IMG/VR virus record: IMGVR_UViG_3300037310_000168
Span: 1-39,023 of that record
DNA length: 39,023 bases
Source: a virus
Lineage: Duplodnaviria > Caudoviricetes
Reading direction: 5' to 3' (one strand)
Under the pieces are notes generated by a model. That model had not been told where the DNA came from, did not search any database, and worked only from the letters and a program-made list of their open reading frames with translations. Every line of letters starts with the position of its first letter. The first letter of the stretch is position 1. The position numbers and the translations under genes are program-made. Positions 574 to 39,023 of this stretch are shown here, one piece after another.

Positions 574-2079
574 TTATAATTTATTTATTGACAACCGAAT
601 AGATGGTCGAATAGTCGCATTGGTTCCCACGGGAGCTAATTGGGCATTTGTAGAATCTGCGGCAAACTGCATTTTAAATGTATCGCCGGAAGTTACGGAG
701 AGTATAAAAGTATTGCTAACCTCGGATCTTGCATTATTAGATGTTAGAGTCATACCAGATTGGCTGCCAGATATTTCGGCATTATTTAGCAAACATCTTA
801 TTTCCGCAACAGATGTCGGGTTTGAATTTCTATTCATCGTTGCTGTATAATTGATCAAATGAGAGCTCGTTATATTTCCGGTAAATAAAACTCCGCTTTC
901 CGTATGCGTCCAGTTGTCTAAAATTACATTAGTGCTAAATGTTATATCTTGGAAAAAGTTGGTGCCAGTTACTGTTTGAGTGCCAGTATCATACACGAAT
1001 ACATTTGATGAAACAGATGAGCCTGTCCCGGGCGCGCCAGAGTAACCAGAGAATCCACTTACACCAGTTGGACCAGAATAACCACTAAATCCACTTACTC
1101 CCGTAGGACCAGAGTAACCACTAAATCCACTTACTCCCGTAGGACCAGAGTAACCACTAAATCCACTTACTCCCGTAGGACCAGAGTAACCACTAAATCC
1201 AGAAGTACCAGTTTCACCAGAATAACCACTAAATCCAGAAGTTCCAGTAGGACCAGAGTATCCAGAGAATCCACTTATACCAGTTGGACCAGAGAATCCA
1301 GAGAATCCACTTATACCAGTTGGACCAGAGAATCCTGAGAATCCTGAAGTACCAGTCTCTCCAGAATAACCACTAAATCCAGAAGTACCAGTAGGCCCAG
1401 AATAACCAGAAAATCCGCTAACCCCCGTAGGGCCAGAATAGCCAGAGACTCCAGTTGGACCAGAATATCCACTAAATCCGGATACACCAGTAGGGCCGCT
1501 ATAGCCAGAAAAGCCGCTAACTCCAGTAGGGCCACTGTATCCACTAAATCCAGAAGCGCCTGTTGGTCCGGAGTAGCCACTAAATCCGCTTATTCCAGTT
1601 GGGCCAGAGTATCCAGAGAAACCTGATACACCAGTCGGTCCAGAGTAACCCGAGAATCCTGAAGTTCCTGTTTCTCCTGAGTAGCCAGAGAATCCAGAAG
1701 TACCAGTAGGTCCAGAGTAACCCGAGAACCCCGACACTCCCGTAGGGCCAGAGTAACCAGAGTATCCAGAAGTGCCAGTTTCTCCTGAGTAACCCGAAAA
1801 CCCGCTTACTCCTGTTGGTCCAGAATAACCAGAGAAACCAGAGACGCCAGTAGGGCCCGAGTAACCAGAAAATCCAGACACCCCGGTTGGACCAGAGAAC
1901 CCAGAAAATCCACTAAACCCAGATACTCCTGTAGAAACTGGAAAAGCAGTACCCGTGCCTTCGTATTTAGCTTGTAACTGACCATCTTCGGAAATAGTTA
2001 AAAGATAATTTATTCCAGAGGGACTTTCGATATACCCCTGAACATCTGTTTCACTAAAAATGAATGCTATACCAGACAT
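574..2079 (-). CDS. Collagen-like (Gly-X-Ser/Thr) fibre protein with BclA-C/C1q-like C-terminal domain
   Basis: About 300 aa of G-X-[ST] triplets in 12-aa units, then a ~140-aa beta-rich domain (QTVT...DITF...LINYTAT...EISGSQ...VTSGD) resembling BclA C-terminal domains. Confidence 0.8.
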   Translation of the reverse strand: MSGIAFIFSETDVQGYIESPSGINYLLTISEDGQLQAKYEGTGTAFPVSTGVSGFSGFSGFSGPTGVSGFSGYSGPTGVSGFSGYSGPTGVSGFSGYSGETGTSGYSGYSGPTGVSGFSGYSGPTGTSGFSGYSGETGTSGFSGYSGPTGVSGFSGYSGPTGISGFSGYSGPTGASGFSGYSGPTGVSGFSGYSGPTGVSGFSGYSGPTGVSGYSGPTGVSGFSGYSGPTGTSGFSGYSGETGTSGFSGFSGPTGISGFSGFSGPTGISGFSGYSGPTGTSGFSGYSGETGTSGFSGYSGPTGVSGFSGYSGPTGVSGFSGYSGPTGVSGFSGYSGPTGVSGFSGYSGAPGTGSSVSSNVFVYDTGTQTVTGTNFFQDITFSTNVILDNWTHTESGVLFTGNITSSHLINYTATMNRNSNPTSVAEIRCLLNNAEISGSQSGMTLTSNNARSEVSNTFILSVTSGDTFKMQFAADSTNAQLAPVGTNATIRPSIRLSINKL

Positions 2080-2093
2080 TTATTATATCTCCA

Positions 2094-3221
2094 TTATATT
2101 TTACTTATCGAAAGTCGAATTGATGGCGCTACTGCGGTTCCAGTTCCCGCAAACGGAGCTATTTGTCCATCGGTAGTTGATCCCATAAGTTGATTTTTAA
2201 ATATATTTCCAGAGATAGCAGAGAAGATTATTCCATTGCTTATCTCCACCGGAACATTATTTGCCACTAGAGTTTGCACAGTTTGGCTTCCGTTTATTTC
2301 TGTTCCGTCCAATACTGCACGGATTTCCATTCGCACTGATGGTGTAGCTATCCTATTAACCGTTGCTGTATAGTTGGCCAGATAGTTTCCGCTTTCTAAA
2401 CATGTAAAGGATGCGGTTCCGGACGTATGCGACCAGCCCGATTTTAATGGGCTATTTGAATATGATATATCCTGGTATGAGTTTGCTACCGTTACTGTTT
2501 GGGAGCCAGTATGATACGCAAAAACAAATGCTGGCGTGGGAGGATTTCCGCTGTATCCGCTATAGCCCGAGAATCCACTTACTCCTGTTGGGCCACTGTA
2601 TCCAGAAAACCCAGAGACTCCAGTGGGACCAGAATAACCTGAGAAGCCGGAGATTCCTGTAGGTCCGCTATATCCAGAAAACCCGGAGGTCCCGGTCTCT
2701 CCCGAGTATCCGCTGAATCCGCTTATTCCTGTCGGGCCAGAATAACCAGAGAAACCAGAGGTTCCCGTGGGACCACTGAACCCACTCGCTCCAGTAGGGC
2801 CCGAGTAACCCGAAAATCCAGAAGTGCCCGTAGGGCCCGAGTAACCCGAAAATCCAGAGAATCCGGACACCCCCGTAGGACCAGAATAACCACTAAATCC
2901 ACTTACTCCAGTTGGGCCCGAGTATCCAGAGAACCCAGAGATGCCTGTTGGCCCGCTATGTCCAGAATATCCAGAGACCCCAGTAGGCCCAGAATAGCCA
3001 GAGAATCCGCTATAGCCAGAGAATCCGCTATAGCCAGAGAATCCGCTAGTGCCAGATCCGCCCCCGCCGGTGGAGGAAATTATGATCTCTTGGTTTGACG
3101 GGCTAACATCTATAGTAACACCTGTGCCAGGCAATAATGAACGCAAGCCCTGTAGAGGAATCGCTATTCCTGTTCCAGAGCCGAGATTGTTAAATGTTGT
3201 ACCTATTTTAACATCACTCAT
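2094..3221 (-). CDS. Collagen-like (Gly-X-Ser/Thr) fibre protein with BclA-C-like C-terminal domain
   Basis: Same repeat; C-terminal domain is clearly paralogous to 574..2079 (both end PSIRLSIxKx). Confidence 0.8.
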   Translation of the reverse strand: MSDVKIGTTFNNLGSGTGIAIPLQGLRSLLPGTGVTIDVSPSNQEIIISSTGGGGSGTSGFSGYSGFSGYSGFSGYSGPTGVSGYSGHSGPTGISGFSGYSGPTGVSGFSGYSGPTGVSGFSGFSGYSGPTGTSGFSGYSGPTGASGFSGPTGTSGFSGYSGPTGISGFSGYSGETGTSGFSGYSGPTGISGFSGYSGPTGVSGFSGYSGPTGVSGFSGYSGYSGNPPTPAFVFAYHTGSQTVTVANSYQDISYSNSPLKSGWSHTSGTASFTCLESGNYLANYTATVNRIATPSVRMEIRAVLDGTEINGSQTVQTLVANNVPVEISNGIIFSAISGNIFKNQLMGSTTDGQIAPFAGTGTAVAPSIRLSISKI

Positions 3222-8257: not shown

Positions 8258-8770
8258 TTAGGAGGGAACGTATTCTTCGTATTTAAATTTGGTGGCTCCA
8301 GGGAAACGCTTCAATATAAATTGTTTATAGGTTTCAAAATCAACTGTTTTTTCTCCGGAGTCATCATATATTGTGTAACCAGATCTGTATGATCCATATG
8401 CCCGTGCCAATTTATTGCCACGGCCGTCGGTCCATTCTATTAGGCTGTTTTCTGGAGCTATCCATGAAGGATTTGGAGTATTTCTTGTCTGATATCCATG
8501 AATTTTCCAAACCCGCTCACCATTTTCCCATTCAGTAGATGGCAAATCATTTTCTCGATGCTCCTGGCCATCTTCGTCTATCCACTCTAAATATCTTGAA
8601 TCAGGACTAGATTTATATGGATAGCTTTCTATGATACTGTGATCGAATAGTTTTTTAAGTTCGACCATGACATCCGGTGTATATTTATCAAATCCCACTA
8701 TATTTGCTATAGCAGGGCGGTCAAATTTTTTACGTTGACCAAGATAGGCTATAAAGTATCTGTAATTCAT
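8258..8770 (-). CDS. IAYLGQ-leader protein with HRxxxLP/xEW repeat domain
   Basis: Start MNYRYFIAYLGQRKK at 8770 via ATGA overlap; HRENDLPSTEW motif; paralogous to 8767..9297. Confidence 0.75.
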   Translation of the reverse strand: MNYRYFIAYLGQRKKFDRPAIANIVGFDKYTPDVMVELKKLFDHSIIESYPYKSSPDSRYLEWIDEDGQEHRENDLPSTEWENGERVWKIHGYQTRNTPNPSWIAPENSLIEWTDGRGNKLARAYGSYRSGYTIYDDSGEKTVDFETYKQFILKRFPGATKFKYEEYVPS

Positions 8771-9297
8771 TCTGGCCAATCCTTTGGAATGATTTTTCCC
8801 TTTTTACTTATTTTTCCAGCCCAGTAGTCGGCGTCGGCTTTAGGAAATAACAAAGTTATTCTTAATTTATAGTTGTCTATATCCTTTTGATCGTCGTAAT
8901 CCTTTTGATCGTCGTAGACTGTGCCATTTATGATAACAGGATCCCCGCCCCCAAGATACCACCAAACATTTTCATAGGCTTTATTCACGAGCGCCGGTCC
9001 AGCATTCCTATGTATTTTATCATGAATAAAGTACTCTTTTGCACCGTCTGGCCATTCTTTTGCCGGTAAATTGCCAGGTCTGTGAATGACACCATGCGGA
9101 GTTCGCCAAATAATGATCTTGGAACGCTCAAACATTTTCTTATCTGGTGCGCTTTCTATCTCTCTTTTCTCCATCATCTCATTTAACAAATCTATTATTT
9201 CTGGAGTAAAATTATGAAAACCAGTAAGATTTTCGATATATGATTTTGATATCGAGCGGCTTTGCCCAAGATAGGCTATTAAATATCTATAATTCAT
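8767..9297 (-). CDS. IAYLGQ-leader protein with HRxxxLPA/HRxxGPA repeats
   Basis: MNYRYLIAYLGQSR; HRPGNLPAKEW, HRNAGPA; FPKADADYWAG shared with the upstream gene. Confidence 0.8.
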   Translation of the reverse strand: MNYRYLIAYLGQSRSISKSYIENLTGFHNFTPEIIDLLNEMMEKREIESAPDKKMFERSKIIIWRTPHGVIHRPGNLPAKEWPDGAKEYFIHDKIHRNAGPALVNKAYENVWWYLGGGDPVIINGTVYDDQKDYDDQKDIDNYKLRITLLFPKADADYWAGKISKKGKIIPKDWPE

Positions 9298-10292
9298 GGC
9301 TGAAAGATAGCCCCTCCATCCCTCGGAAAAATTTTTCCTTCAATGATATTTCCAGCCCAATAGTCAGCATCGGCTTCCGGAAAATATTGTTTAATGAGAG
9401 CCTTGTATGTGGCCAGGTCTTTTACTATCATTCTATCGCTATTTAGGCTATCCCCCACCATGTTTACAAAATAAAATTTACCATCTCTATACCATGCGAT
9501 TATATCCGGTCTGTCAATAATGGCCGGTCCGTCTGTTCTATGATTTTGTCCACGAATAAGGTATTCCTTAGAACCAAAAGCTTCCGGATTTTTATCTTCA
9601 CCAATCCATTCTTTTGCCGGAAGGTTGTTCGGGCGATGGGCGCGGCCATAGGGATCCCGCCATTCAATATAGCTCCCTGATGAATATATCATAGCTGGCG
9701 CACTTTCTATGAGTCCATCATTCATAGCATCATTCAATACTTTAATATCTTCCATGGTCAAATCTTTGCCTTTGGCATTGACTAAAGTGGACAACGCATT
9801 TCGTTTACGACTCTCACCAAGATAAGCGGTCTTTTTAAAATCTCGTATAGAAATATATTTTTCTAATTCCGGATTCGGATTTTTATCTAAAAACTCCCCA
9901 AGCTCTACAAGTGCCTGTGGTATATCAAACTCAGGATCCTTGGAGTTATGGAAATCAAATCCGAACAATGTTCTTGTGACAGTATCAAAATACACTTTGT
10001 AATCTCTATGAAACCCATCAGCTAAAAATTTAAAATCATCAGAACGTCTAGAGTTTATCACAAGGACCGGCTTCAAGGAGACGCTGTAATAAAATTTACC
10101 CCATCGGCAATCTTTAATTTCCAAGCGTTTAGTTTTCTTATCTATATTAAAATCAGGACCCAGAATAGCCCCGTTGCCCCATTCTCTTCCATCGTAAATA
10201 CGCGGCATCTCAACAAACCTAGCTGGTTTCTGAGGAGCCATGCGGGATTGTCCAATGTATGCTATGAGATGCCTATATTGGATTATCGTCAT
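9294..10292 (-). CDS. Two-module IAYLGQ-leader protein; C-terminal HRxDGPA repeat domain
   Basis: Likely start ATG 10292 (MTIIQYRHLIAYIGQSR); second internal KKTAYLGESR; HRPNNLPAKEW, HRTDGPAII, FPEADADYWAG. Confidence 0.8.
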   Translation of the reverse strand: MTIIQYRHLIAYIGQSRMAPQKPARFVEMPRIYDGREWGNGAILGPDFNIDKKTKRLEIKDCRWGKFYYSVSLKPVLVINSRRSDDFKFLADGFHRDYKVYFDTVTRTLFGFDFHNSKDPEFDIPQALVELGEFLDKNPNPELEKYISIRDFKKTAYLGESRKRNALSTLVNAKGKDLTMEDIKVLNDAMNDGLIESAPAMIYSSGSYIEWRDPYGRAHRPNNLPAKEWIGEDKNPEAFGSKEYLIRGQNHRTDGPAIIDRPDIIAWYRDGKFYFVNMVGDSLNSDRMIVKDLATYKALIKQYFPEADADYWAGNIIEGKIFPRDGGAIFQP

Positions 10293-10695
10293 CGGTTTTG
10301 AAGTCACCTTTATAATTTATGTATTTACCTACGGCCTTTTCTCCGTCTTCCGGTCCTAAAGACGGAGAACATACCAAAACAACTTTTCTATCGGTATCAT
10401 AGTACACTCTTCCGCTACTTCTCAAATCTATCTTTAAAGGACCGCGCTTGTCATCAAGGGACCTTTCTTTATGGAAGATGTATTTTATCGTAGCGTTTGC
10501 ACCGACACTAGGAATTAACCAGCCCCAATAATTTAAGCCATAAATTTCTAATTGTTTCGATCCTTTAATATTATATCTTGGCAATGCATGAAGATTATGC
10601 GTGTTACCATTTTCATCTTTGATCAAAACGACATTGTTAGCGGGTTTTTGCTGCCTGCTTTGTCCCAAATAAGCTATGAGATGTCTGTAGTTCAT
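10273..10695 (-). CDS. IAYLGQ-leader hypothetical protein
   Basis: MNYRHLIAYLGQSR; ATGA overlap with the upstream gene. Confidence 0.75.
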   Translation of the reverse strand: MNYRHLIAYLGQSRQQKPANNVVLIKDENGNTHNLHALPRYNIKGSKQLEIYGLNYWGWLIPSVGANATIKYIFHKERSLDDKRGPLKIDLRSSGRVYYDTDRKVVLVCSPSLGPEDGEKAVGKYINYKGDFKTDDDNPI

Positions 10696-11096
10696 AATGA
10701 CAAAAACTCTTCATATGGAATTTTATAATTATCGCCTTCTCTAGAGGCTATATAATCAAACTTCCCATTTCGTATAATTTTTTCTAATTGTTTAAAATCG
10801 GAAGTAATTTTAGCTTTATCTGAATTTTTTGCAATAAACGCGAGACAGCGGTGTTGAGCATTATAATATGTTAATTCGCTATTGTTCTCTGGACTAATAT
10901 GTTGATTAACGTAAAAAAAACATGTACCATTATCAGAAATGGTAATAAGTCTAGGAACTAATGAGGAATGTAGTAGGCTATCCTTATGTTTTTTAAAGAA
11001 GTCAGCTTCGCTCATCTGGGTTACATCATCCCACGAGTTAGCTGAACGACTCTGACCTAAATAAGCTATTTTATTTAAATAATAAATACGGTTCAT
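10692..11096 (-). CDS. IAYLGQ-leader hypothetical protein
   Basis: MNRIYYLNKIAYLGQSR; first gene after the capsid terminator. Confidence 0.75.
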   Translation of the reverse strand: MNRIYYLNKIAYLGQSRSANSWDDVTQMSEADFFKKHKDSLLHSSLVPRLITISDNGTCFFYVNQHISPENNSELTYYNAQHRCLAFIAKNSDKAKITSDFKQLEKIIRNGKFDYIASREGDNYKIPYEEFLSL

Positions 11097-11156: not shown

Positions 11157-11194
11157 AAAATAAAAGAAACCCCTAGGATTTCTCCTAGGGGTTT
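11157..11194 (-). terminator. Intrinsic terminator after the major capsid gene
   Basis: Perfect 12-bp stem AAACCCCTAGGA/TCCTAGGGGTTT (11167..11194), GAAA loop on the minus strand, then a U-rich run. Confidence 0.9.
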
Positions 11195-11219: not shown

Positions 11220-12191
11220 TTAGGCAGTGGTGTACTTGGCTACGCCACGGCTGTTAGCTACGGCGATACCGATGAGTTCGTTTACAACCCATCCTAGCTT
11301 GAGCTGCTTTGGCTCGTCGGCTGGCAATACTTCAATATCTTGACGTATTGGCATTGGGCCTACGAAGTCTGCATCTGCGCAAGCATATACAGTGTTAGCT
11401 GGAACAACCTTCGAAACGATAACGTCGGCGGTCCATAGCTTACCGAACAAGCCGGTCTGCAATACTTCGCGCTGAGTTACTGGATCGAATGAGGTGTTAT
11501 CGAAGGTACGGAATCCTGCAAAAGTCTTGATGTTCATGAAGATTCTTGCAGTGATTAAGTCCCACTTGTCGACTTCGCTGTAAAGATCAGCCAACTTGTT
11601 CTTGGAGATCGTTCCAGTTGTGTCAGTTACTGCGTCGTTATCGACCGTTGAAGCGAAGTCCAAGGCAGCAAAGATGTTGGCATCTTCCTGGGCCTGGATT
11701 TCCTGACGTGCCTTCTGCTGTGCACGATCGATGACGTTGAAGCGGCGTCTCTTGACCTCAGCGATACGAACTGTTGGGTTAGCAACAACTTCGAACTCTG
11801 GGACGTTGATACGGTCGCCCTTGATGCGTGACTCTGGGGTTGCACCATTCGAGGAGATTACAAAGGCGGTTACGTCAATATCCTTGTCGTAAACAGCCAA
11901 TGCACCCTGAGGAAGCGGGTCAACTCTTAGAGCCTTACGGCCTACACCCTGATAATCAAGGTTCTTACGGATCGGGTTTGCCATTGCCTGAGCAAGAGCA
12001 ACGCGACCACGTTCATTTGCGAGAGCTTTCGAGAGAAGGGCTTCCTTCTCAGTGTCAGAGACGCTTGGTTCTGCAGCGGCGGTAGCGGTATTAGCGTTAC
12101 CAACGGCAGTAACAAAGGCCATCATCTGATTGAGAACGTCCTTCTTATCGAAAGCATTCATCTCGCCTGATTTGTTAAATAGTTCTGACAT
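11220..12191 (-). CDS. Major capsid protein (HK97 fold)
   Basis: 323 aa; last gene of the portal-protease-scaffold-decoration run, followed by a strong terminator; IRKNLDYQGVGRK, EIQAQED, G-lwtA-vivS and ELIGIAVAN..GV patterns typical of HK97-fold capsids. Confidence 0.88.
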   Translation of the reverse strand: MSELFNKSGEMNAFDKKDVLNQMMAFVTAVGNANTATAAAEPSVSDTEKEALLSKALANERGRVALAQAMANPIRKNLDYQGVGRKALRVDPLPQGALAVYDKDIDVTAFVISSNGATPESRIKGDRINVPEFEVVANPTVRIAEVKRRRFNVIDRAQQKARQEIQAQEDANIFAALDFASTVDNDAVTDTTGTISKNKLADLYSEVDKWDLITARIFMNIKTFAGFRTFDNTSFDPVTQREVLQTGLFGKLWTADVIVSKVVPANTVYACADADFVGPMPIRQDIEVLPADEPKQLKLGWVVNELIGIAVANSRGVAKYTTA

Positions 12192-12368
12192 TTATTTGTC
12201 CCCTATTTTCTTCACGTAATTTAGCCGCAAAGCGACTGGATTCGTGGAGATGATTTTTGCTTTCTTTTGGTTTAGAAGAATACGGGCTTTTCCAGGTCTT
12301 ACTGGAGTTAGCTGAATCATATTTCCGTTAAAAACGGGAATAGATTTGTTTTTTAAATCGTTAGGCAT
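12192..12368 (-). CDS. Stand-alone PLMP/RRXRR-like domain protein, 58 aa (below the ORF-track length cut-off)
   Basis: Manual translation MPNDLKNKSIPVFNGNMIQLTPVRPGKARILLNQKKAKIISTNPVALRLNYVKKIGDK*; fits the RRXRR pattern VxVldxxgxPLxPxxPxxARxLLxxxKAxvxxxxPfxixL; GAGGT 10 nt upstream; TAA directly abuts the MCP ATG. Confidence 0.8.
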   Translation of the reverse strand: MPNDLKNKSIPVFNGNMIQLTPVRPGKARILLNQKKAKIISTNPVALRLNYVKKIGDK

Positions 12369-12404
12369 ATCTCAGCCAACCTCATCTATGGACGGTAAAG
12401 GTTA

Positions 12405-13043
12405 TTAGACCTTGTAGAAGTGCAGGTAAGGATTACCAGCGCTTGGTGTCTTCGTTGCGTATGCTACGATCTTGCCCGAGCCAGGATCGACTGAGGTAAG
12501 TTTGCTGTTGGACGAGCTATAGAGAGGCGAACCGACCGTATAGGTGATTGCTCCCGAGGACGCCGTGGCAACTTCGTAGACATCCGTTGCGTATTCACCG
12601 GGCTGAATCCATAGGGTGCACTTTCCAGAAGCCAACGTGGTGTCGTCTCCGGCCTTACCAGGAATGTAGTACGAGTACGATACATTACCGGCTGAGGTTA
12701 CGGTTACGGTTCCGTTGGTTGCTGAGGTTAACGTTGCGTTAGCGGTTCCAGAAGAGTACGTTCCAACCACGATATTAGCGTGGTTCAAAACGGTCGTTCC
12801 AGTCGTTACAGCTTCGTCAACCACAGTAGCGATGAACTGGGTGGTCTTATTGTCGTCAATGACGCCAAGAAGAACGTTACCAGTTGCAGCTCCTGCGAGA
12901 ACTACCTGGGGAAGTCCGGTTGGAGATCCCGAAGAAGTTCCCTGTAGTTTACCAATCTGTCCAGCTTCGAAAGTGGCAGATGGATCTACTAGGAAGTCGC
13001 CCTGAGGTCCTGCTAGGTTGGTGTAAAGCAGTTTGAATGCCAT
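12405..13043 (-). CDS. Head decoration/cement protein
   Basis: Between scaffold and MCP; small-residue, beta-rich; FEAGQIG..., GEYATDVYE, YTVGSPLY patterns; AAGGGAG RBS. Confidence 0.65.
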   Translation of the reverse strand: MAFKLLYTNLAGPQGDFLVDPSATFEAGQIGKLQGTSSGSPTGLPQVVLAGAATGNVLLGVIDDNKTTQFIATVVDEAVTTGTTVLNHANIVVGTYSSGTANATLTSATNGTVTVTSAGNVSYSYYIPGKAGDDTTLASGKCTLWIQPGEYATDVYEVATASSGAITYTVGSPLYSSSNSKLTSVDPGSGKIVAYATKTPSAGNPYLHFYKV

Positions 13044-13105
13044 ATTATTTTTTCACTCCCTTCTATCGTTTCATTAGGCCAGCTAGTGGCGAAAGTTGTT
13101 AAGGT

Positions 13106-13131
13106 TCCTGGGGACTTTAGCATCCCCAGGA
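13106..13131. promoter_or_regulatory. 9-bp GC-rich hairpin between scaffold and decoration genes
   Basis: TCCTGGGGA-8 nt-TCCCCAGGA; U-tract only on the plus strand. Confidence 0.6.
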
Positions 13132-13142
13132 TTTTATTGCTA

Positions 13143-15059
13143 TTAGCGGCTCCAGCCGAGGTTTGATAGTCTGCCGATGAACGAAGACTCTGAGTCAACT
13201 TCAGCGGTATCCTTCTGGCCTAGGCGAGGGATCTTAACCGAAGCAGTTCTTACTAACTCTTCGGAGGCTGATACCTCACGAACCTTTGCGTTGTCAAGCA
13301 TCTTCTTGAAAGCGACGAATGCGCTGTCATCAAATGCCAAGATTTCTTTTACCAAGTTACTCTTAGCTTCTGCGGTTCTATCGCAGAATCCCTTTGAGGA
13401 TGCAACTTCTGCCAACTCGTAAGCTCTTACAACCTTGGTCTGAGCCTCGCTTACGGCAGCCTTTACATCCTTATCGGTAAAGTTCTTACTTAGTTCTTTG
13501 CCAAACTCTTTGGAGGCAGCATCGCCCTGGCCATATAGACCCTGCCAGTAATCAGATCCGTCTTCCTTATAGGTCTCACCAGCTCCGCCCTGGGCGGCGG
13601 TCTTTACTGGGGCCTTGGAGGTTGCCTTTGAGGCCAAGTTGCCGGTAGGCATCTTGTCTGCAACGGCTACATCTTTATCCTGAGCTTCGGTTACGGTTTC
13701 AAACTTCTCACCCTCGTCCTTTGGCTTTCCGCCTACAGATACGTTGGTTAGATTAGTGCCACCATCTGGATGGGCAGCAGCGATTTCGCCCTTGCCATCC
13801 TTCGGAGCTCCATCAGGAACTACACCGTACTCTGATCCATCAGGTCCAGCGGCCAAAGCCTTCTTGCGCTCGGTATCGCGGCTCTTTAGGAATGCAGTTA
13901 CATAGTCCTTGGCGGAATCAAACTTGGCAGTTACTGGTTCCTCTGTAGGAACCTCAATTGCCTCTTCAATCATCTCTTCACCAGGAGCCTCAATAACCTC
14001 TTCTGCTGCGCCAGCTTCTCCGCCAGCAACTTCAGCTGCTGCTTCGATAGCGGCATCAGCGGCTTCAAGAGCCTGTTGTGCCTTAGAGAGAGTGTCGTCG
14101 GTTCCTTCTAGGATTGCGGTTGCATCATTCTGAGCCTCAGCAGCAAGCTTGATAAGCTTGATCTTCTGCGATGCGGTCAATCCCTTTGAGCGCAAGTGAG
14201 CAGCAATAGTGGCCATCTCATCCTTGGACTCATCTAGCATCTTTTCTGCGTCCTGAAGCTGAATGAAAACTTCGGCAGTTGATTGAGGAGCGGTATTTTC
14301 TACCAAGTTGGTCTGTGCGCTTTCGACTTCTGCCTTCTTCTGATCCAAAAGATCAACAGTGACATCGGACTCAGCTGCGGTCTGATCAACTTCTGCATCA
14401 AGAGCCTGATTGGTTTCTAGAGGAAGCTCTTCAACAACGGCCATTTCACCGGCTGGAGCCTCTTCTACCATATCCAACTCAGCCTGGGCAGTCTTAACAT
14501 TTGACTTAACCAAGCCAGCTCTCTTTGCGAATTCCTCTTCTCCAGTTAGCCAGAAAGCTACCTTAGAGAAACCATGCTTCTTAATCTTTGCTATGATTGC
14601 ACGACCGTATTTACCGTCGTTTGACTTGGCGATATTCTTGTCATTCAAGTCCTTGTTCCAGATCTGAGATAAAGATGCTCTTACGATTGGAGTCTTCTCG
14701 CCCTTGGCGTCGACGGTGTAAACGGTCCAGAAAGACTCTGCAGGATTGGCCTTTCTAGTAATACCAACTGCGAGCTTTGCATTTGCAATCTTCTCATCAG
14801 CCGGAATACGCTGCCAGTCTTGCTTCATCTTGAACTCTTCGCCTGCAGGTCCCAAGTTCTTCTTGGTCTTATCTGCTGCACCTTCAAACCACTTCTGTTC
14901 CCAATCGCGGGAATCTCCACCAACCTGGGTCTCCATTGGTTTGCGGTCGTACTTAACTTCTCCAGGATAACCAAGCTTGTTGGGATCGTTAGAAACGACC
15001 TTATCTACATTTTCAGTAGATCCCTGGAACCATGCTTTCTTCTGATTCTTATTGCTCAT
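13143..15059 (-). CDS. Prohead scaffold/core protein
   Basis: Acidic Ala/Glu-rich coiled-coil; directly downstream of the protease; AGGAGG RBS; many [KR]-T-A motifs. Confidence 0.65.
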   Translation of the reverse strand: MSNKNQKKAWFQGSTENVDKVVSNDPNKLGYPGEVKYDRKPMETQVGGDSRDWEQKWFEGAADKTKKNLGPAGEEFKMKQDWQRIPADEKIANAKLAVGITRKANPAESFWTVYTVDAKGEKTPIVRASLSQIWNKDLNDKNIAKSNDGKYGRAIIAKIKKHGFSKVAFWLTGEEEFAKRAGLVKSNVKTAQAELDMVEEAPAGEMAVVEELPLETNQALDAEVDQTAAESDVTVDLLDQKKAEVESAQTNLVENTAPQSTAEVFIQLQDAEKMLDESKDEMATIAAHLRSKGLTASQKIKLIKLAAEAQNDATAILEGTDDTLSKAQQALEAADAAIEAAAEVAGGEAGAAEEVIEAPGEEMIEEAIEVPTEEPVTAKFDSAKDYVTAFLKSRDTERKKALAAGPDGSEYGVVPDGAPKDGKGEIAAAHPDGGTNLTNVSVGGKPKDEGEKFETVTEAQDKDVAVADKMPTGNLASKATSKAPVKTAAQGGAGETYKEDGSDYWQGLYGQGDAASKEFGKELSKNFTDKDVKAAVSEAQTKVVRAYELAEVASSKGFCDRTAEAKSNLVKEILAFDDSAFVAFKKMLDNAKVREVSASEELVRTASVKIPRLGQKDTAEVDSESSFIGRLSNLGWSR

Positions 15060-22496: not shown

Positions 22497-22509
22497 AATT
22501 CACCTTAAA

Positions 22510-22579
22510 CTCATAAAGCTCTACACAAAAGCGTAGAGCTCCATGAGGTTCGGCCGAGCGGGCTTCATGAGAAGCTCTA
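22510..22579 (-). promoter_or_regulatory. Structured RNA element upstream of terL (17-bp hairpin with an alternative pairing)
   Basis: CUCAUGGAGCUCUACGC-UUUU-GUGUAGAGCUUUAUGAG (22510..22547, three G-U pairs); competing arm at 22565..22579. Confidence 0.7.
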
Positions 22580-22581
22580 GC

Positions 22582-37131: not shown

Positions 37132-37895
37132 TATTTCAAAATCCTCAGTCTTTCTTGTTCTTTAGGATTCGATATAGACTCGTCTATATATTTTATAGCT
37201 GCTTCTGGCCCAAATTTATTTAGATACTCGTCCATATCTTTGGCATTATTAATACGACAACGATAGATTTTAATCTCTTTCTTGGAATCATACGCCGTCA
37301 TTTTTTTATTGAACGAGCTTAGAGCCTGTAGTCCGCCATCGTCGTTATCAAACATCAACACGATTTCTTTGGCATATCTAGACAATAGAATCATATGATG
37401 CTCTGATAATGTCGTTCCCATACAACATACTGCATTTTTTATACCGTGCTGATGGGCAGTTACAACGTCGGCATATCCCTCAAACACTATGACTCTGCCT
37501 GTTGCCAAAATATGATCGATGGCCCTATGCAGCCCATACAGAACTTTTGTTTTTTCAAAAAATGTGTTGTAATACTTGGGCTTAATTTGAGCGTTTAAAG
37601 TTCTTCCGGCTATTGCGATGCATTTTCCCCACGTATCATGGATGGGGAATATGATTCGATCGAAGAACAATGACTTCTTCTTGCGTATGATTCCCGTATC
37701 TTCCAGGTCGTCATACTTTCCACCGCTATTAACTAGCCCAACCTTTAATGATAATAATTCGGTCTTCGGAAAATACCCTATTCCCCATTCATTAATAGTT
37801 TGGTCAGACCATGCGCGGGTTTTGACATATTCATTGAATACATCGTTTCTACTATTGACAGTGTGTTTTGATACAACATCAAAAACATTATACAT
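37131..37895 (-). CDS. dnaG: DnaG-type primase core (Toprim), no N-terminal zinc finger
   Basis: DRIIFPI, GR...PKYYN, FEGYADV, MGT, FDNDDGG, KDMDE. Confidence 0.88.
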   Translation of the reverse strand: MYNVFDVVSKHTVNSRNDVFNEYVKTRAWSDQTINEWGIGYFPKTELLSLKVGLVNSGGKYDDLEDTGIIRKKKSLFFDRIIFPIHDTWGKCIAIAGRTLNAQIKPKYYNTFFEKTKVLYGLHRAIDHILATGRVIVFEGYADVVTAHQHGIKNAVCCMGTTLSEHHMILLSRYAKEIVLMFDNDDGGLQALSSFNKKMTAYDSKKEIKIYRCRINNAKDMDEYLNKFGPEAAIKYIDESISNPKEQERLRILK

Positions 37896-38466
37896 GTATG
37901 GCTACTAAATTTTTGGGTACGACTAACGTAAAAAATGTATCATCATTCTTATTATAGTAGAATTTAACAGTTTTTAAATCTATATTTTGTGAATTTAGTT
38001 TGCATGTCACCGTGGCATTTATTTTTTGAGGCACATGCTTGGTTAGGACTATTTTTTTATTTGACAAAGGTATGGCATCGGATTTCATATTTGCCATGAA
38101 GTCATTGCTGCTAATATTAAAATATAATTCTCTGGGAAGCTCGACGCATGGCTCAAAACCTTCTGGAACATTCAAATTATAAATGAAACTGTGCCCATGT
38201 CTTGCGCAAATTTTAGAACCATCATTGCTTAGTTTAAATATGCCACCTGAAAGATCTTTGGTTATATATATAAACTCATCTTTGGAAATTGACATATCGA
38301 AATGCTTTTCTATTAAACTCATAAGCGCCTGGGAGTCGGCATACCCCTCGGAATCAAGGCGCACTTTATAATAGAACGGCTTATGACGCAAAACAAATGA
38401 GAGGAACTTCTTTATTTTCAAGATGTCCTCTTTGTTATTTTTTGAAAAATTATTTTGTACGCTCAT
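37888..38466 (-). CDS. Degenerate Tpt1/KptA RNA 2'-phosphotransferase-like protein
   Basis: LSFVLRHKP...LDSEGY...KICARHGHS; NAD-lobe motifs altered (LYFNI instead of LYHGT). Confidence 0.75.
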   Translation of the reverse strand: MSVQNNFSKNNKEDILKIKKFLSFVLRHKPFYYKVRLDSEGYADSQALMSLIEKHFDMSISKDEFIYITKDLSGGIFKLSNDGSKICARHGHSFIYNLNVPEGFEPCVELPRELYFNISSNDFMANMKSDAIPLSNKKIVLTKHVPQKINATVTCKLNSQNIDLKTVKFYYNKNDDTFFTLVVPKNLVAIHV

Positions 38467-39023
38467 AGCTGCTTTAGAATTTCTACGAATTTTTTAGCGG
38501 GAATATCCCAATTATAATTATCTCGCACCCACGTCTCGGCATAATTTCCTATCTCAGCTGCCTTGTCATAGTTCTCTTTCACCCAGCACATAGCTTCTAT
38601 TATATCATTTTCCTGTGGAGAAAACCATGTTCCATTGCTGCCCTTTTGTGGAAAGAAGTTTGGATCGTAAACTGGTTCTTCTACTAGGTTTGGAAGAATT
38701 ATTGAGTTTTTATCATTAACGTAGTCTAGCATGGCCGAGTTCTTGGACGTAATGACCGGTAATCCGCAAGCCATAGCCTCTAAGGTTGGAAGCCCGATAC
38801 CTTCCGAGCATGATGCAAATACGGCGGCATGGTGGCTATTATAGACAGGTTTCATGTCTGGCTCGAAGTCTCTAATATCAAAATTGTCGAAACAGTGCTC
38901 AAGCCCGTCTTCTTTTAGGGTGTTATATACGAATGACTGGGCATTAAAGTTTGGGATATGATGATTATTTATGAAAAGCGTCATTCTTACTTTCCTATCA
39001 CCATTAAATGCCTTTGCAAACGC
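38463..39023 (-). CDS. GT4-family (group 1) glycosyltransferase, 5'-partial
   Basis: EGIGLPTLEAMACGLPVI motif; frame stays open from 38984 to the window end (AFAKAFNGDRKVR). Confidence 0.88.
   Translation of the reverse strand, partial: AFAKAFNGDRKVRMTLFINNHHIPNFNAQSFVYNTLKEDGLEHCFDNFDIRDFEPDMKPVYNSHHAAVFASCSEGIGLPTLEAMACGLPVITSKNSAMLDYVNDKNSIILPNLVEEPVYDPNFFPQKGSNGTWFSPQENDIIEAMCWVKENYDKAAEIGNYAETWVRDNYNWDIPAKKFVEILKQL

What the first reader, a model, noticed from the sequence alone, without database searches (positions are those of the whole stretch)
12192..12368. Hidden stand-alone PLMP/RRXRR (IscB N-terminal-like) microprotein inside the capsid operon
Seen: the apparent 213-nt gap between decoration and capsid genes encodes an intact 58-aa ORF with its own SD. 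Its sequence IPVFNGNMIQLTPVRPGKARILLNQKKAKIISTNPVALRL matches the PLMP/RRXRR pattern. Established: PLMP is the N-terminal omegaRNA-contacting domain of the OMEGA nucleases IscB/IsrB and is normally fused to RuvC/HNH. Here there is no nuclease, no transposase, no room for an omegaRNA, and the ORF ends cleanly at the domain boundary. Inference: a domesticated RNA-binding module that regulates capsid mRNA translation, is packaged in virions, or acts as a decoy against OMEGA systems.
Basis: partly seen in the sequence, partly recalled or inferred. Interest (0 to 1): 0.88.

Follow-up and report, generated by a model that had tools for sequence, protein, structure and literature searches.

The report
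Phage capsid operon's IscB-derived RNA switch
A clade of large uncultured phages keeps a tiny conserved gene just before its major capsid gene; it encodes only the RNA-gripping front piece of IscB (the transposon ancestor of Cas9) and sits behind a conserved two-hairpin RNA leader that the protein likely binds to throttle its own synthesis and possibly that of the capsid protein.

Summary
The finding is real. The minus-strand ORF 12192-12368 (58 aa) is a true PLMP domain: Pfam RRXRR above cut-off, and its predicted fold overlays IscB PLMP (Z 9.3, 1.5 Å). It is no relic. It is intact in 28 distinct phage loci wherever the contig covers it (three are cut by contig ends), lies between the decoration-like and major capsid genes wherever flanks allow, evolves under purifying selection (dN/dS about 0.17), and marks one capsid clade next to Bacillus phage G.

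New here: the 36-nt gap upstream holds a tandem-hairpin leader covering the Shine-Dalgarno sequence and start codon. It has compensatory changes and starts 7-9 nt after the upstream stop in 27 of 27 loci. A distant phage lineage fuses PLMP to the gene after the capsid gene and keeps the same leader with different paired bases (7 of 8; 0.37 expected). In IscB/IsrB, PLMP grips the SD-bearing terminal omegaRNA hairpins.

Best reading: a domesticated PLMP-plus-operator module that likely represses its own translation and would pace capsid synthesis through coupling. Binding, expression and the regulatory output are untested. My searches found no paper describing it.

The parts
12192..12368 (-). 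Stand-alone PLMP-domain microprotein gene (58 aa)
   Evidence: Pfam RRXRR E 4.5e-6; fold match to IscB PLMP Z 9.3, rmsd 1.5 Å over 51 residues; dN/dS median 0.17
12379..12396 (-). Leader hairpin H1: ACC, variable stem-loop, then GAGG(T); holds the Shine-Dalgarno sequence (12379-12383)
   Evidence: Present in all 28 type-A loci; two upper pairs change on both sides; exact register of the lower pairs is uncertain
12364..12377 (-). Leader hairpin H2: GGC paired with GCC, loop UGAGA(N)AU; the 3' arm includes the G of the start codon and the invariant Pro2 codon
   Evidence: RNAalifold consensus helix; one G-U variant; both-sided changes in the second lineage
12405..13043 (-). Upstream gene, decoration-like by position; its TAA stop lies 7-9 nt before H1
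   Evidence: Synteny in 27 of 28 loci and stop-to-ACC distance 7-9 nt in 27 of 27; name inferred from phage G gene order
11220..12191 (-). Major capsid protein gene (phage G gp27-like, 60% identical); its SD (12199-12204) lies inside the last codons of the PLMP ORF
   Evidence: phrog_2522 E 7e-80; tblastn; own SD in all 23 loci with a start found
11167..11194 (-). Intrinsic-terminator-like hairpin after the capsid gene
   Evidence: consensus scan; function not shown

Best explanation
The 58-aa protein is a conserved, selected, stand-alone PLMP domain related to that of IscB, and it likely binds the two-hairpin leader of its own mRNA to block its own ribosome-binding site, which would also damp translation passing on to the major capsid gene. 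Shown: the gene, its fold class, selection, synteny, a single leader copy per genome, and a leader that travels with the PLMP domain in two phage lineages while its paired bases change together. Inferred, step 1: an iscB element landed in the late operon and was cut down to the omegaRNA 3' hairpins plus PLMP. Inferred, step 2: ribosomes stopping at the decoration gene (stop 7-9 nt before H1) open H1 and let the PLMP gene be translated. Inferred, step 3: accumulating PLMP clamps H1/H2 over SD and AUG, a negative feedback loop. Inferred, step 4 (weakest): the capsid ribosome-binding site lies in or just behind the PLMP ORF, so the loop would set capsid output relative to the upstream head proteins. 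My odds: functional gene about 0.95; binds its own leader about 0.8; translational autorepression with coupling to the capsid gene about 0.5.
For: PLMP identity. 21 further 58-70 aa homologues at 66-86% identity; longer hits are 161-480 aa RRXRR proteins, mostly with HNH domains, at no more than 57 bits. 7 of the 7 closest capsid loci carry the gene, 0 of 73 more distant ones. The 23 carriers in the capsid tree are one side of a branch, SH-aLRT 93. dN/dS median 0.17, maximum 0.39, over 154 unsaturated of 351 pairs. Leader: 97.9% of cells paired, 13 both-sided changes, 0 of 500 shuffles as high, slid controls 20-48% paired. One strong leader site per genome in 4 of 4 records. Out-of-sample lineage: model hits at E 0.0013 (L151) and 1.8e-4 (L153); H1 pattern in 7 of 8 against 0.37 expected and 11 of 507 control leaders; H2 pairs swap GGC/GCC to GAC/GTC, GGG/CCC and AGG/CCT. 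Literature: PLMP contacts the tandem 3' hairpins and the SD of the omegaRNA, and its authors proposed control of IsrB expression (PMC9581776); terminal hairpins are recognised mainly without sequence specificity (PMC9640706).
Against: No binding, expression or ribosome data exist. In the second lineage the leader does not always cover the start: in L153 and L157 the ATG lies about 20 nt past H2, and L157 has a second copy about 85 nt before an unrelated ORF, so occlusion cannot be the universal output. The capsid gene has its own good SD in 23 of 23 loci, and the gap to the PLMP stop varies from -17 to +73 nt, so coupling is not obligatory. The hairpins are weak: single-sequence folds give the ACC/GGT register probabilities of 0-0.78 (0.00 in the window), RNAalifold recovers only H2, and 5 of the 9 pairs never vary within type A. 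The covariation control ignores relatedness. The fixed TAA(T) before H1 (TAAT in 21 of 27) may instead be a promoter -10 element. Only 4 of 12 iscB loci fit the H1 pattern, and the leader model scores them weakly (best on-target E 0.14).
Confidence: 0.5

Rival explanations
1. PLMP binds the same leader, but the output is at transcript level: the complex marks or protects an RNA end (5' end of a PLMP-capsid mRNA started at a TAAT promoter, or 3' end of the upstream message), or controls termination or read-through like a lambda N/boxB pair.
For: The leader persists where it does not cover a start codon (L153, L157). TAAT at a fixed 7-9 nt before H1 in 21 of 27 loci. In the second lineage the leader often follows a strong hairpin behind the capsid gene. 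H2 loops are GNRA-like (GAGA, GAAAA; likeness to boxB recalled, not tested). A review suggests PLMP may regulate transcription termination of the omegaRNA (PMC10734217).
Against: In all 28 type-A loci the SD and AUG lie inside the two hairpins, and the Pro2 codon is held by pairing. No U-tract follows H2, and the consensus scan finds no sigma-70 promoter on the minus strand there.
Confidence: 0.25
2. The protein is a head component or an assembly sensor: it binds a capsid or scaffold protein, and only the free form represses the leader, as in P22 scaffolding-protein autoregulation.
For: Both arrangements flank the capsid gene. In the second lineage PLMP is fused in frame to the protein after the capsid gene. 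[quoted passage not shown]
Against: The type-A protein has no conserved extra segment beyond the PLMP core (tails vary freely). Many fusions keep an internal SD and Met that would skip PLMP.
Confidence: 0.12
3. The protein acts in trans on the host: as an IF3-N-like effector on ribosomes, or as a decoy that sequesters omegaRNAs of OMEGA systems.
For: PLMP resembles the IF3 N-terminal domain (PMC9581776; Z 3.2-3.8). PLMP-hairpin contacts are mostly sequence-independent.
Against: The match to IscB PLMP is far closer than to IF3-N (Z 7.2-9.3 for the top nine chains against 3.8 or less). Late-operon position and a co-conserved cis leader are not expected of an anti-defence decoy. IscB systems are selfish elements rather than anti-phage defences (own knowledge).
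Confidence: 0.07
4. A neutral relic of an iscB insertion.
For: The PLMP tree places the clade near full-length IscBs of the P0029/L133 group, one of which is phage-borne. 34 of the loci were found through the protein itself, so those cannot show loss.
Against: dN/dS 0.17 with synonymous sites near saturation; no broken copy among 28; 7 of 7 in the unbiased capsid-based sample; no RuvC, HNH or HEARO remnants.
Confidence: 0.03

Closest known systems
PLMP domain of IscB/IsrB with the 3'-terminal omegaRNA hairpins (PF14239 N-terminus; PDB 9k2z, 9k30, 7utn, 8dmb)
   Same: Sequence and predicted fold; SD-bearing hairpins directly upstream of the gene; an ACC-stem-GAG hairpin is seen in 4 of 12 iscB loci.
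   Different: No RuvC, bridge helix, HNH or TI domain, no guide or HEARO scaffold, no transposase; fixed in a phage capsid operon under purifying selection.
IshB (PLMP + HNH, about 180 aa)
   Same: PLMP without RuvC (PMC10734217).
   Different: IshB keeps an HNH nuclease; this protein is PLMP alone.
TldR, nuclease-dead TnpB repressors (10.1101/2023.11.30.569447; seen as search listing and start of abstract only)
   Same: An OMEGA-family transposon protein domesticated as a regulator.
   Different: TldR keeps the whole protein and guide RNA and acts on DNA; here one 50-aa domain and a 36-nt cis RNA remain, with a predicted action on mRNA.
Autogenous translational operators of phages (P22 scaffolding protein; MS2 coat operator and T4 gp32 recalled from own knowledge)
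   Same: A protein binding a leader structure over its ribosome-binding site in a structural operon.
   Different: No homology; there the structural protein is itself the repressor, here a dedicated captured module would be.

Membership tests
PLMP domain (IscB/IsrB/IshB N-terminus) | Profile match to the N-terminal part of RRXRR/IscB models | tested here: met
   PF14239 E 4.5e-6, positions 1-42; NF040563 positions 3-44; TbaIscB E 2.8e-6
PLMP domain (IscB/IsrB/IshB N-terminus) | Small beta-sheet plus one helix fold | tested here: met
   Model pLDDT 82.7; 9k2z Z 9.3, rmsd 1.5 Å, 51 aligned; top nine rows all IscB/IsrB. The alignment used for folding included IscB-type N-termini.
PLMP domain (IscB/IsrB/IshB N-terminus) | Literal P-L-M-P motif | tested here: not met
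   Family reads x-L-x-P with only L invariant in the 31-row alignment
PLMP domain (IscB/IsrB/IshB N-terminus) | Binds tandem RNA hairpins | not testable with these tools
   Co-conserved leader only
IscB/IsrB/IshB OMEGA nuclease | RuvC and/or HNH nuclease domain with bridge helix | tested here: not met
   ORF ends at the domain boundary in all complete copies; 28 bits against a 175-bit cut-off; no second RRXRR match in 4 records
IscB/IsrB/IshB OMEGA nuclease | Full omegaRNA/HEARO upstream | tested here: not met
   No Rfam HEARO in 11900-13300, while all 12 iscB control loci hit it; gap is 31-42 nt
omegaRNA 3'-terminal hairpins | Homology of H1/H2 to the hairpins after the HEARO core | tested here: inconclusive
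   Pattern in 4 of 12 iscB loci against 0.33 expected; leader model hits L132 right at the HEARO end only at E 0.14
Autogenous translational repressor | Operator overlaps own SD and start codon | tested here: met
   All 28 type-A loci; not so in L153 and L157 of the second lineage
Autogenous translational repressor | Protein lowers translation from the operator | not testable with these tools
   Needs reporter or toeprint assay

The most novel reading that the evidence does not exclude
PLMP plus its tandem hairpin is a portable 50-aa/36-nt protein-operator cassette that large phages of the phage G / Rctr197k capsid group have wired into the capsid operon in two ways (stand-alone before the capsid gene, fused after it) as a feedback device for head-protein stoichiometry. 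It would be a new fate of OMEGA elements, the first natural evidence that PLMP works alone as an autoregulator, and a minimal system for the open question of what PLMP does. A bolder branch (about 0.1) is that the free cassette is older than IscB; the short tree nests it among IscBs but cannot root it.
Probability: 0.5. Interest if true: 0.87.

Novelty: new variant of a known kind. Interest (0 to 1): 0.76.

Why it matters
[quoted passage not shown] Here evolution has isolated the domain and a matching hairpin pair from everything else and kept both under selection, which makes that proposal directly testable with a 58-aa protein and a 36-nt RNA. It also points to an undescribed control layer on capsid synthesis in large phages, and to a very small protein-RNA pair with natural covarying variants that might serve as a translational switch or RNA tag.

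Tried and rejected
Stop-codon read-through into or out of the ORF: rejected. Decoration-to-PLMP frames are 13/10/4, and 15 of 27 loci have a second stop at once; PLMP-to-capsid frames are 4/11/8 in 23 loci.

Other operator copies in trans: none strong in 4 records; next best E 0.12.

First structure model (pLDDT 68.7) gave no clear fold match; a more diverse alignment fixed this. Complex prediction of PLMP with the capsid protein gave no answer (score 0.00); this is no evidence either way. Sequencing-run search listed no RNA holder, so nothing on expression.

Genome-collection scans: none for an IscB query; one 15-residue hit for the family, not followed; the host is unknown. DNA-motif scan of viral contigs: 8 hits, 6 known carriers and 2 chance matches. 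PLMP tree (48 columns): type A is one group (96); common origin of types A and B neither shown nor rejected (p-AU 0.54). The capsid tree is the quick version only, with long branches for phage G and type B. Direct profile comparison of the family with the Rctr197k N-terminus was weak (E 0.07); a broader profile built without it gave E 0.0048 among 9,741 segments.

Literature searches listed no paper on stand-alone PLMP in phages; one search was swamped by unrelated papers. Altae-Tran et al. 2021 was not held, so it and its supplement, which may mention PLMP outside nucleases, were not seen.

Full report
Observation. The window is a 39-kb fragment (21% complete by CheckV) of a large tailed phage. 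Its head genes run on the minus strand: terminase, portal, maturation protease, a 638-aa scaffold-like gene, a 212-aa gene, then the major capsid gene. The closest cultured capsid relative is Bacillus phage G gp27 at 60% identity; by phage G's gene order the 212-aa gene is the decoration gene (position only). Between it and the capsid gene lies ORF 12192-12368, 58 aa. It matches Pfam RRXRR at E 4.5e-6 over model positions 1-42 of 174 and the IscB model over positions 3-44 of 314. A family profile finds TbaIscB as best solved sequence (E 2.8e-6). A first AF2 model was too poor to search with. A second, from a more diverse alignment that included IscB-type N-termini, reached pLDDT 82.7 and overlays IscB/IsrB PLMP domains (Foldseek E 5e-4, TM 0.79; Z 7.2-9.3 for the top nine chains, IF3-N at 3.2-3.8).

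It is a conserved gene, not debris. A protein search gave 21 further proteins of 58-70 aa at 66-86% identity. A profile search of 1.84 billion representatives gave 4 hits at 1e-16 or better, then a gap to IscB-type N-termini at 1e-7. Longer relatives are RRXRR proteins, mostly with HNH domains, at 57 bits or less. Of 80 viral loci fetched by the capsid protein, the 7 closest (74-83%) carry the gene and the 73 others (56-63%) do not; those have a median gap of 15 nt before the capsid gene, under 150 nt in 66 of 69 measurable. With 34 metagenome loci there are 28 distinct protein-plus-leader loci including the window. The decoration-like gene is upstream in 27, the capsid gene downstream in 23, both in 22; the misses are contig ends or short flanks. 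None is broken; three are cut by contig ends. Nei-Gojobori dN/dS on 51 core codons of 27 sequences has median 0.17 (interquartile 0.13-0.22, maximum 0.39) over the 154 of 351 pairs that are not saturated; pairs are not independent. In a quick capsid tree of 83 rows the 23 carriers form one side of a branch (SH-aLRT 93, not starred), next to phage G, which has no such gene near its capsid gene. In four phage records, one 205 kb and 90% complete, PF14239 matches only this ORF.

The leader. The 31-42 nt gap upstream is more conserved than its position warrants. All 28 loci fit one pattern (24 distinct versions): H1 is ACC, a variable stem-loop, then GAGG(U/C), which is the SD; H2 is GGC paired with GCC around a UGAGA-type loop, the 3' arm using the G of AUG and the second codon. 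That explains the near-invariant Pro2; the one Leu2 variant keeps a G-U pair. The first upper pair of H1 is A-U 17 times, G-C 6 times and G-U once. On the MAFFT alignment 97.9% of 195 cells pair, with 13 both-sided changes (0 of 500 shuffles as high; slid controls 20-48% paired), but five of nine pairs never vary and the control ignores relatedness. Against this: RNAalifold recovers only H2, and single-sequence folds often prefer another register for the foot of H1, including in the window. The upstream stop, always TAA, lies 7-9 nt before ACC in 27 of 27 loci although the upstream protein's tail varies in length. A covariance model finds one strong site per genome in 4 of 4 records and none in the 73 distant loci, so the element is a single cis site tied to this gene.

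An out-of-sample test. Two weaker protein hits (P0028, P0039) were PLMP fused to a phage protein whose relative in Virus Rctr197k follows the capsid gene. Of 15 viral loci fetched with the capsid protein of that lineage (four are near-identical and one is the query's own contig), 13 have a PLMP-like domain just downstream of the capsid gene (the very next gene, except in L157): 9 at E 5e-11 or better and 4 at 0.009-0.025; one has none and one is cut (the profile included a close relative of L152). The Rctr197k N-terminus scores E 0.0048 with a profile built without it. The type-A leader model, never shown these loci, hits directly upstream in L151 (E 0.0013) and L153 (E 1.8e-4), though not in the other ten loci. 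A plain ACC-stem-GAG pattern with at least 3 pairs occurs in 7 of 8 distinct type-B loci against 0.37 expected from shuffles and 11 of 507 control leaders; the same strict pattern fits 15 of 26 type-A leaders, and 23 of 26 with 2 pairs. Both helices change on both sides: H2 becomes GAC/GTC, GGG/CCC or AGG/CCT. So the RNA travels with the PLMP domain, not with the position. Against a simple occlusion model, L153 and L157 start about 20 nt past H2, and L157 has a second copy before an unrelated ORF. Many fusions keep an internal SD and Met.

Origin. All 12 iscB control loci hit Rfam HEARO, and 4 of 12 fit the H1 pattern within 120 nt of the start (0.33 expected); in L137, L138 and L141 the hairpin sits at the end of the HEARO core, and the leader model scores the equivalent hairpin of L132 at E 0.14. 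Descent of the leader from the omegaRNA 3' hairpins is plausible but not shown. The 48-column PLMP tree puts type A (96) near a group of full-length IscBs that includes a phage-borne one, splits type B in two, and neither shows nor rejects a common origin of A and B (p-AU 0.54).

Mechanism. In IsrB the PLMP domain stabilises the terminal omegaRNA hairpin and contacts the SD just upstream of the gene, and the authors suggested expression control (PMC9581776; passages and section 6 read). In IscB the terminal hairpins are bound by PLMP (PMC9640706; passages). A review calls the function unclear and mentions termination control (PMC10734217; passages). I therefore commit to this model: PLMP binds its own leader, represses its own translation, and through coupling likely limits capsid synthesis (0.5). 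The fixed spacer suits a terminating ribosome opening H1 (inference from ribosome geometry, own knowledge), but a TAAT promoter element would also explain it. The capsid SD lies within or at the end of the PLMP ORF in 13 of 23 loci (gap 7 nt or less); the other gaps are 13-26 nt in nine and 73 nt in one, so coupling is possible but not forced. Rivals: transcript-end or termination control (0.25), assembly sensor or virion part (0.12), host-directed effector or decoy (0.07), relic (0.03).

Novelty. It is a member of the PLMP domain family but not an OMEGA nuclease. Seven literature searches (listings only, apart from the papers named) showed no description of stand-alone PLMP in phages. A 2026 OMEGA review has no occurrence of PLMP or RRXRR (PMC13565253, term search). 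The founding Altae-Tran 2021 paper and supplement could not be seen. Earlier unchecked AI notes of this scan, looked up after I had found type B, report similar PLMP reuse; they are leads, not support, and they suggest the phenomenon is recurrent. I rate it a new variant of a known kind, interest 0.76.

Noticed in passing
window 8767-11096 (-), four consecutive ORFs after the capsid gene (starts 11096, 10695, 10307, 9297): All four otherwise dissimilar ORFs begin with the same short motif (x-I-A-Y-[LI]-G-Q-S-R), not found in any other fetched locus. It recalls the capsid-targeting leader of T4 internal proteins (recalled, untested).
   Followed up: partly
L007:2565-3454 (same also suggested in L105, L117): The capsid gene is interrupted after about codon 71 by an insertion of about 0.9 kb with an ORF bearing a LAGLIDADG-like motif (recognised by eye); probably a group I intron. 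A near-identical relative (L004) lacks it.
   Followed up: no
L157:4082-4530: Two copies of the tandem-hairpin leader after the capsid gene: one before an unrelated 92-aa ORF, one before the PLMP fusion.
   Followed up: partly
L150:3268-4439 (Virus Rctr197k, KX853510.1), L151-L165: Second phage lineage with PLMP fused to the protein after the capsid gene, often with an internal SD and Met, and the same leader.
   Followed up: yes
window 37888-38466 (-) and 38463-38984 (-): Tpt1/KptA-family RNA 2'-phosphotransferase and a family-1 glycosyltransferase next to primase and a small sigma-like gene.
   Followed up: no
window 574-3221 (-): Two collagen-repeat proteins with weak BclA C-terminal domain matches, likely fibres.
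   Followed up: no
window 22510-22579 (-): Long near-perfect hairpin (about -38 kcal/mol for 22497-22581) directly upstream of the terminase gene; not leader-like.
   Followed up: partly
P0035: A 191-aa protein made of three tandem PLMP-like domains without nuclease; genomic context unknown.
   Followed up: no
L119:288-1695: Two tandem decoration-like genes upstream of the PLMP gene.
   Followed up: no
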